Shown piece after piece: positions 43,175 to 43,190 of a DNA stretch of 64,000 nt (its first letter is position 1; each line of letters opens with the position of its first letter). The stretch comes from Escherichia coli (lineage in GTDB: Bacteria; Pseudomonadota; Gammaproteobacteria; Enterobacterales; Enterobacteriaceae): the NCBI RefSeq assembly GCF_024502345.1, contig NZ_JALDNN010000001.1. One strand, 5' to 3'. A program made the translations under genes and the position numbers. The notes under the pieces were generated by a model that was given only the letters and a program-made list of their open reading frames with translations, was not told the origin of the DNA and ran no database searches.

Positions 43175-43190
43175 ACGCAAACGGTTTCGT
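43175..43190. promoter_or_regulatory. PurR operator (PUR box) of purL
   Basis: ACGCAAACGGTTTCGT matches the 16-bp palindromic PurR consensus ACGCAAACGTTTTCGT at 15/16; about 80 bp upstream of the purL start. Confidence 0.75.

What the first reader, a model, noticed from the sequence alone, without database searches (positions are those of the whole stretch)
43175..43190. Near-perfect PurR operator at purL; weaker candidate at glyA
ACGCAAACGGTTTCGT upstream of purL matches the PurR palindrome at 15 of 16 positions. The glyA upstream candidate (53171..53186) matches only the first half. Together they mark purine-responsive control in the window.
Basis: partly seen in the sequence, partly recalled or inferred. 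Interest (0 to 1): 0.2.

Follow-up and report, generated by a model that had tools for sequence, protein, structure and literature searches.

The report
Known PurR operators at purL, glyA

Summary
The window is E. coli chromosome (mltF | purL–qseE–qseG–glrR–glnB–hmpA | glyA). ACGCAAACGGTTTCGT is at 43175..43190 as reported. Both 16-mers, and their 9,994-bp spacing, match the PurR motifs under ChIP-chip peaks in Cho et al. 2011. A RegulonDB evidence paper counts the glyA site as cross-validated ('confirmed').

A PWM built without these two sites ranks them first and second in the 64 kb window (20.9 and 20.6 bits; about 0.005 such hits expected by chance). A purL box of at least 17 bits occurs in 59/62 Enterobacterales, 27/29 Vibrionales and 14/15 Pasteurellales loci and in 0/7 outgroup loci. 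A glyA box occurs in all 8 loci that reach glyA.

Corrections: "15 of 16" holds only against ACGCAAACGTTTTCGT, and is 14/16 against the perfect palindrome. glyA is not the weaker binding site by PWM score or ChIP signal. It differs in position: centred near −60, upstream of the −35, whereas the purL box overlaps the −35.

Verdict: already known, low interest.

The parts
43175..43190 (.). PurR operator (PUR box) of purL: ACGCAAACGGTTTCGT
   Evidence: Sequence read. Leave-out PWM 20.6 bits, second best in the window. Identical to the purL motif under the ChIP-chip peak, ACGAAACCGTTTGCGT on the other strand. The surrounding 44-mer is identical in 5401 of 5425 E. coli genomes. The exact 16-mer occurs upstream of purL in 44 Enterobacterales loci.
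43187..43192 (+). Inferred purL -35 hexamer (TCGTCA, 4/6 to TTGACA, 16-nt spacer), overlapped by the 3' end of the PUR box
   Evidence: Read from the sequence. Inferred from the invariant 18-nt box-to-TATAAT spacing. Not called by the simple promoter scanner. No transcription start data were available here.
43209..43214 (+). purL -10 hexamer TATAAT
   Evidence: Perfect consensus hexamer. Conserved (at least 80% of sequences per position) at a fixed 18 nt after the box in 61 distinct Enterobacterales sequences stacked without gaps. 17-18 nt in most Pasteurellales.
43215..43233 (+). Conserved GC-rich discriminator plus GTTT(T)CCCCC block at or after the expected transcription start; function unknown
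   Evidence: Consensus TATAATg.cgCccGTTTtCCCcc across Enterobacterales. Not a PurR site (-4.5 bits). Not part of a conserved RNA structure.
43267..47154 (+). purL coding sequence (phosphoribosylformylglycinamidine synthase, 1295 aa)
   Evidence: ORF; RefSeq annotation of the identical region.
53169..53184 (.). PurR operator (PUR box) of glyA: AGGTAATCGTTTGCGT
   Evidence: Leave-out PWM 20.9 bits, best in the window. Identical to the glyA ChIP-chip motif. Unchanged in the sampled E. coli variants, whose substitutions lie just upstream of it. A box of 18.6-23.6 bits lies 93-198 nt upstream of the glyA ATG in all 8 other-species loci that reach glyA.
53226..53231 (+). Inferred glyA -10 hexamer TATACT
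   Evidence: GTTATACTGT is conserved in the four Enterobacteriaceae glyA upstream regions. The AATGAT hexamer picked by the scanner is not conserved. This puts the box centre at about -60; that position is an inference.
53303..54556 (+). glyA coding sequence (serine hydroxymethyltransferase, 417 aa)
   Evidence: Annotation; translation.
51319..51334 (.). Weak PurR-box candidate upstream of glnB (ATGCAAACGATTTCAA), inside the 3' end of glrR, 68 nt before the glnB ATG
   Evidence: Third-best PWM hit in the window, 14.0 bits. About 0.005 such hits expected per 400 bp. glnB is cited as a footprinted PurR target that ChIP-chip missed. The same 16-mer is kept in two Citrobacter loci only. Identity with the published operator was not verified here.

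Best explanation
[quoted passage not shown] When hypoxanthine or guanine is bound as corepressor, PurR binds the 16-bp imperfect palindrome with its central CpG.

At purL the box ends 18 nt upstream of a perfect TATAAT, so it covers the -35 region. Bound PurR would therefore compete with RNA polymerase and shut purL off when purines are plentiful. This is promoter occlusion. The geometry is shown here; the occlusion step is inferred and is also the textbook model.

At glyA a box that scores the same lies upstream of the -35 region, centred near -60 by inference from the conserved TATACT. PurR there modulates rather than blocks transcription. This ties one-carbon and glycine supply to purine demand.
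For: Identity of the locus: E. coli mltF-purL and hmpA-glyA intergenic regions.

Exact sequence identity, and identical 9,994-bp spacing, with the motifs under PurR ChIP-chip peaks for purL and glyA. Binding at purL was seen only with adenine; at glyA it was seen with and without adenine.

The glyA site is counted as cross-validated ('confirmed') by RegulonDB curators. Footprinting and site-mutation papers exist for purL and glyA. PurR binding to the glyA promoter by EMSA and MST, and glyA up-regulation on loss of purR, were reported independently.

The leave-out PWM ranks the two sites first and second in 64 kb at about 20.6-20.9 bits, against a null maximum of 14.7 +/- 1.9 and 0.005 expected hits. 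No other site above 5 bits lies in either intergenic region. Both have a central CG.

Conservation follows the taxa reported to have PurR. The purL box is present in 59/62 Enterobacterales, 27/29 Vibrionales and 14/15 Pasteurellales loci, and in 0/7 outgroup loci. The loci were chosen by a coding-sequence pattern that is independent of the box. The glyA box is present in 8/8 loci.

The fixed 18-nt spacing between box and TATAAT is seen in 61 distinct Enterobacterales sequences. The corepressor and mechanism summary comes from a review.
Against: Nothing found here contradicts it. The limits are these.

The primary footprint papers (He 1990; Steiert 1990 and 1992; Lorenz and Stauffer 1996) could not be read. 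Exact footprint borders, transcription start sites and fold-repression values are therefore not verified here.

The promoter hexamers at both genes are inferred from conservation, not from mapped starts. The simple scanner did not call the purL + strand promoter.

ChIP-chip log2 values appear capped at 2.08, so the comparison of glyA and purL occupancy is only semi-quantitative.
Confidence: 0.97

Rival explanations
1. The matches are chance resemblances to the PurR consensus with no regulatory role.
For: With up to 3 mismatches allowed, the consensus search is not significant on its own: 3 matches against 0.96 expected, and 11 of 100 shuffles do as well.
Against: The purL site has only 1 mismatch (about 0.0015 expected). 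Both sites score above 20.5 bits (0.005 expected per window). Both sit in promoter regions of known regulon genes, are bound in vivo, and are conserved across three bacterial orders but absent in outgroups.
Confidence: 0.005
2. The glyA box is a degenerate, weak or marginal site, and purine control in the window essentially resides at purL.
For: Only 13/16 consensus matches and 5/8 symmetric pairs. The box lies upstream of the -35, which would fit modest repression (inference).
Against: Its leave-out PWM score equals or exceeds that of purL (20.86 against 20.59). Its three deviations (AGG.., T at position 4, T at position 7) all occur in other bound operators such as purR, purB and tsx. ChIP enrichment is at the ceiling with adenine and still detectable without it, unlike purL. 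The site is cross-validated in RegulonDB. A strong box is kept upstream of glyA in 8/8 loci from Enterobacterales and Vibrionales.
Confidence: 0.05
3. The boxes are, or are also, read by a paralogous LacI-family regulator with a similar motif (for example RbsR), so that control is not purely purine-responsive.
For: Comparative genomics reports that PurR arose by duplication of RbsR and 'retained the motif'.
Against: ChIP was done on PurR itself and the signal responds to adenine. The boxes are found where PurR orthologues are reported and are absent in outgroups. Nothing found here links purL or glyA to ribose.
Confidence: 0.02

Closest known systems
E. coli purL PurR operator (PUR box), described by He et al. 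1990 (J Bacteriol 172:4555) and Meng et al. 1990, and mapped by ChIP-chip in Cho et al. 2011
   Same: It is the same object: identical 16-mer, identical position relative to purL, identical genome context.
   Different: Nothing. The only additions here are the cross-species tally and the fixed 18-nt spacing to the -10.
E. coli glyA PurR operator (Steiert et al. 1990 and 1992; Lorenz and Stauffer 1996; Cho et al. 2011)
   Same: Identical 16-mer AGGTAATCGTTTGCGT in the hmp-glyA intergenic region.
Other E. coli PUR boxes (purF, purT, purMN, purHD, purC, purEK and others)
   Same: 16-bp imperfect palindrome, central CpG, GCAAAC/GTTTGC half-sites, scores of 17-24 bits on the same PWM.
   Different: purL carries G at position 10 and T at position 13. 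The G is conserved in all 59 Enterobacterales boxes and 24 of 28 Vibrionales boxes, but is T in Pasteurellales. Operator position varies between genes; for example, the purB site lies inside the gene.
LacI/GalR-family operators in general (LacI O1, GalR, CytR, RbsR)
   Same: Even palindrome with a central CG step, bound by a dimer with helix-turn-helix and hinge helices (family knowledge).
   Different: PurR binds DNA when its ligand is present (a corepressor), the reverse of most family members.
Bacillus subtilis PurR / PurBox system
   Same: Same name and the same physiological purpose, purine-responsive repression of pur genes.
   Different: An unrelated protein (PRPP-binding, modulated by (p)ppGpp) and an unrelated tandem PurBox DNA element. 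It is not the system present here.

Membership tests
E. coli-type PurR operator (PUR box) | 16-bp imperfect palindrome matching the consensus ACGNAAACGTTTGCNT / ACGCAAACGTTTTCGT | tested here: met
   purL has 15/16 and 14/16 matches and scores 20.6 bits. glyA has 13/16 and scores 20.9 bits. The PWM was built without these two sites.
E. coli-type PurR operator (PUR box) | Central CpG step at positions 8-9, the hinge-helix intercalation site (family knowledge) | tested here: met
   Both boxes, and the glnB candidate, have CG at positions 8-9.
E. coli-type PurR operator (PUR box) | Located in or near the promoter of a purine, one-carbon or nucleotide metabolism gene | tested here: met
   The purL box ends 18 nt before a conserved TATAAT and starts 92 nt before the ATG. 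The glyA box starts 134 nt before the ATG, upstream of a conserved TATACT. Each is the only high-scoring site in its intergenic region.
E. coli-type PurR operator (PUR box) | Bound by PurR in vivo or in vitro | not testable with these tools
   From the literature only: ChIP-chip peaks with these exact motifs; footprint and site-mutation evidence summarised by RegulonDB; EMSA and MST on the glyA promoter.
E. coli-type PurR operator (PUR box) | Purine (hypoxanthine/guanine)-dependent repression of the downstream gene | not testable with these tools
   From the literature: PurR occupancy at purL was seen only with adenine. All purine biosynthesis genes were repressed by adenine, and eleven IMP-pathway genes were repressed by PurR. 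glyA was up-regulated on loss of purR.
E. coli-type PurR operator (PUR box) | Conserved at orthologous promoters in taxa that have PurR (Enterobacterales, Vibrionales, Pasteurellales) and absent outside them | tested here: met
   purL: 59/62, 27/29 and 14/15 loci with a box of at least 17 bits, against 0/7 outgroup loci. The three Enterobacterales exceptions are a stink-bug gut symbiont, an Orbales genus, and a mis-binned contig whose purL is only 55% identical. glyA: 8/8 loci.
PurR operator at glnB (candidate 51319..51334) | PWM match, conservation and in vivo binding | tested here: inconclusive
   14.0 bits, about the best score expected by chance somewhere in a 64-kb window, but only about 0.005 expected per 400 bp. 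Kept only in Citrobacter. Not detected by ChIP-chip, although glnB is a published footprinted target. The published operator sequence could not be read.

The most novel reading that the evidence does not exclude
The purL promoter may carry a second, undescribed control layer beside PurR. Two features are conserved as strongly as the operator itself across more than 30 enterobacterial genera. One is the non-palindromic G at box position 10. The other is a GC-rich discriminator followed by GTTT(T)CCCCC at the transcription start. Neither is explained by PurR recognition (the block scores -4.5 bits) or by RNA structure. They could reflect nucleotide-pool sensing at initiation, such as ppGpp/DksA sensitivity through the discriminator or UTP/CTP-sensitive initiation on the U-run and C-run, or a site for another factor.
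Probability: 0.12. Interest if true: 0.3.

Novelty: already known. Interest (0 to 1): 0.05.

Why it matters
It matters little as a discovery. These are two of the classical PurR operators of E. coli, footprinted around 1990 and mapped genome-wide in 2011. The check has three small uses. It shows that counting consensus matches misranks real sites: glyA looks weak at 13/16 but scores and binds as well as purL. It corrects the glyA register. It documents that the purL operator and its spacing to the -10 are almost frozen across Enterobacterales, while Vibrionales place the same box about 26 nt further upstream.

Tried and rejected
1. Reading the primary papers (He 1990, Steiert 1990, He 1993) by PubMed id and PMC id: none are held. 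Footprint borders, transcription starts and fold-repression values therefore rest on secondary sources or on my inference.

2. Supplementary expression tables of Cho et al. 2011: not held.

3. Is the conserved block after the purL -10 a second PurR operator or half-operator? Rejected: the best score there is -4.5 bits. Only the CGTTT(T)C half resembles the consensus, and PurR is described as a dimer, which implies two half-sites.

4. Is that block part of a conserved leader RNA structure (GUUUUC pairing with GAAGAC)? Rejected: RNAalifold on 22 leaders gives no consensus pair. The E. coli leader folds worse than its shuffles, z = +1.5.

5. Any known cis-regulatory RNA at the purL or glyA leaders? 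Rfam at gathering thresholds finds none there.

6. The simple sigma-70 scanner missed the purL + strand promoter and picked a non-conserved -10 at glyA. I replaced its calls with hexamers supported by cross-species conservation.

7. A protein-anchored scan with 10-kb flanks would have reached glyA and glnB in more genomes. I did not run it, to save shared compute, and used one cheaper DNA-pattern scan instead. As a result, glyA and glnB conservation rests on only 8 and 13 loci.

Full report
**Observation.** The window reads ACGCAAACGGTTTCGT at 43175..43190 on the + strand, exactly as reported. It starts 92 nt upstream of the ATG of a 1295-aa ORF at 43267..47154. The region is E. coli chromosome: a 901-bp query around the site matches 5425 of 5426 complete E. 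coli genomes, and the features under the match are annotated as mltF (divergent) and purL. The annotated gene order around it is tadA, mltF(-), purL, qseE, qseG, glrR, glnB, hmpA(-), glyA, yphH.

The 16-mer has one mismatch to ACGCAAACGTTTTCGT and two to the perfect palindrome ACGCAAACGTTTGCGT.

The glyA candidate is real, but its register is 53169..53184: AGGTAATCGTTTGCGT, or ACGCAAACGATTACCT on the other strand, with 13/16 matches.

**More than chance?** I built a symmetric PWM from 26 PurR motifs under ChIP-chip peaks (Cho et al. 2011, Table 1), leaving out purL and glyA themselves. Scanned over the whole window, the two best sites are the glyA box (20.86 bits) and the purL box (20.59 bits). 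The next best is 14.0 bits. The maximum in first-order Markov simulated sequences averages 14.7 +/- 1.9 bits. About 0.005 sites of at least 20.5 bits are expected per 64 kb. In each intergenic region the box is the only site above 5 bits. By this measure the glyA site is not weaker than the purL site. Its three departures from the consensus also occur in other bound operators such as purR, purB and tsx.

**What is known.** Cho et al. 2011 (PMC3159470) list, under PurR ChIP-chip peaks, ACGAAACCGTTTGCGT at MG1655 2,693,642-2,693,657 for purL and AGGTAATCGTTTGCGT at 2,683,648-2,683,663 for glyA. These are the two window 16-mers (purL on the opposite strand), and the spacing of 9,994 bp equals 53169 minus 43175.

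Enrichment (log2) was 1.88 at purL with adenine, with no peak without it. At glyA it was 2.08, which appears to be the ceiling value, with adenine and 1.13 without.

The RegulonDB evidence paper (PMC3548332) states that glyA is among the PurR sites cross-validated to "confirmed". It cites footprinting and site-mutation studies for these promoters: He 1990; Steiert 1990 and 1992; Lorenz and Stauffer 1996. An independent 2019 study reports PurR binding to the glyA promoter by EMSA and MST, and glyA up-regulation on loss of purR. A 2024 review summarises the mechanism: a PurR dimer, hypoxanthine and guanine as corepressors, binding to the palindromic PUR box, and reduced access for RNA polymerase. 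The primary 1990s papers are not held in the library.

**Conservation within E. coli.** A 44-mer centred on the purL box is identical in 5401 of 5425 genomes. The glyA 44-mer is identical in 4614, with 1-3 differences in the rest. In the three variant genomes I inspected, every substitution lies outside the 16-bp boxes.

**Conservation across species.** I scanned one genome per species with a degenerate DNA pattern encoding the PurL N-terminal peptide RGSPALSxFR, so that loci were chosen independently of the operator. That gave 120 loci. I scored the 300 nt upstream of each match. A box of at least 17 bits is present in 59/62 loci labelled Enterobacterales, 27/29 Vibrionales and 14/15 Pasteurellales. 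None of the 7 outgroup loci has one: Idiomarina, Aliidiomarina, Neisseria, Accumulibacter, a spirochaete, an Opitutae bacterium and one unclassified MAG. Control 300-nt windows from the same loci average 2.5 bits.

The three "Enterobacterales" exceptions are not typical members. One is a stink-bug gut symbiont, one is Zophobihabitans (order Orbales), and one is a "K. pneumoniae" MAG contig whose purL is only 55% identical to the E. coli gene. This distribution matches the reported distribution of PurR orthologues (PMC4052901).

Eight loci extend as far as glyA. All eight carry a box of 18.6-23.6 bits, 93-198 nt upstream of the ATG. The GCAAAC-type half is constant and the other half varies.

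**Geometry and mechanism.** I stacked 61 distinct Enterobacterales purL upstream sequences in register on the box, without gaps. The consensus is aCGCAAACGGTTTCGTC...g.....gATTCTcTATAATg.cgCccGTTTtCCCcc. The box is thus a fixed 18 nt from a conserved TATAAT (window 43209..43214), and it covers the position of the -35 hexamer (TCGTCA, 43187..43192, inferred). Pasteurellales mostly show the same spacing (17-18 nt). Vibrionales place the box about 44 nt from the -10, immediately upstream of a TTACAT -35. Overlap with the -35 supports repression of purL by promoter occlusion; this step is inferred and agrees with the textbook model.

At glyA, the element conserved among Enterobacteriaceae is GTTATACTGT (-10 TATACT, 53226..53231). 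The AATGAT hexamer picked by the simple scanner is not conserved. This places the box centre near -60, upstream of the -35 region. That position fits PurR acting as a modulator there rather than as an on/off switch (inference).

**A third site.** The third-best PWM hit in the window is ATGCAAACGATTTCAA at 51319..51334, inside the 3' end of glrR and 68 nt before the glnB ATG. glnB is cited as a footprinted PurR target that the ChIP-chip study failed to detect. The score of 14.0 bits is what a 64-kb window yields by chance about 0.85 times, but only about 0.005 times per 400 bp. The 16-mer is kept only in two Citrobacter loci among 13 loci that reach glnB. I regard it as the probable glnB operator. 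I could not verify that against He et al. 1993.

**Side observations.** The G at box position 10, the "mismatch" to the palindrome, is present in all 59 Enterobacterales boxes and in 24 of 28 Vibrionales boxes. It is T in Pasteurellales.

The block after the -10 (GC-rich discriminator plus GTTT(T)CCCCC, window about 43215..43233) is conserved nearly as well as the operator. It is not a PurR site (-4.5 bits). It is not part of a conserved RNA structure: there are no consensus pairs in 22 leaders, and the E. coli leader folds worse than its shuffles. Rfam finds no cis-regulatory RNA at either leader. Its function is unexplained. This is the only element here with any room for novelty.

**Verdict.** Both are already known, experimentally mapped features of the E. 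coli PurR regulon. Novelty: already known. Interest: low.

Noticed in passing
window 43215..43233: A GC-rich discriminator plus GTTT(T)CCCCC block immediately after the purL -10 is conserved across more than 30 enterobacterial genera, about as strongly as the PurR box. It is not a PurR site and not part of a conserved RNA fold. Pasteurellales have GC-rich sequence followed by ATTTTT at the same place. Its function is unexplained.
   Followed up: partly
window 43184 (position 10 of the purL box): The non-palindromic G is present in 59/59 Enterobacterales boxes and 24/28 Vibrionales boxes, but is T in Pasteurellales. The 'mismatch' is a conserved state, not drift.
   Followed up: partly
window 51319..51334: ATGCAAACGATTTCAA (14.0 bits) lies 68 nt upstream of glnB, inside the end of glrR. 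It is kept only in Citrobacter among the loci examined.
   Followed up: partly
L008-L124, Vibrionales loci (e.g. L008, L024, L113): In Vibrionales the purL PUR box sits about 44 nt from the -10 instead of 18. The intervening sequence GGTGTTACRTCACAAAA is itself highly conserved and contains a TTACAT -35. The operator-promoter geometry therefore differs from that of enterics.
   Followed up: no
window 43193..43164 (minus strand): A sigma-70-like promoter match (CTGACG, 18 nt, TAAAAT) pointing toward mltF overlaps the purL PUR box. PurR could in principle affect the divergent gene too. There is no evidence either way; mltF/yfhD is not mentioned in Cho et al. 2011.
   Followed up: partly
window 53185..53212: TAAA..C.TTTGTCAAGACCTGTTATCG, between the glyA PUR box and the -10, is almost invariant among Enterobacteriaceae. 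It includes a TTGTCA hexamer 27 nt from the conserved TATACT, too far to serve as its -35. It may be a site for another factor or an unusual promoter architecture.
   Followed up: no
window 47470..47617 (+): The GlmY sRNA gene (Rfam RF00128, 147 bits) lies between purL and qseE/glrK, as expected for this locus.
   Followed up: no
window 1166..1291 (-), 4597..4735 (+), 7731..12739 (+), 24463..24505 (+), 30972..31803 (-), 34586..34800 (+), 38213..38289 (-): Other Rfam hits in the window: Phe leader, RyfD, a complete rRNA operon (16S, tRNA, 23S, 5S), ES036/CssrF, AsrC antisense to rseC, the rncO autoregulatory element, and the ohsC antitoxin RNA next to shoB.
   Followed up: no
L073 (CAMCBU010000061.1, labelled K. 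pneumoniae MAG): The PurL fragment on this 4.7-kb contig is only 55% identical to E. coli PurL, and the contig has no PUR box. It is probably mis-binned and not from Klebsiella.
   Followed up: partly
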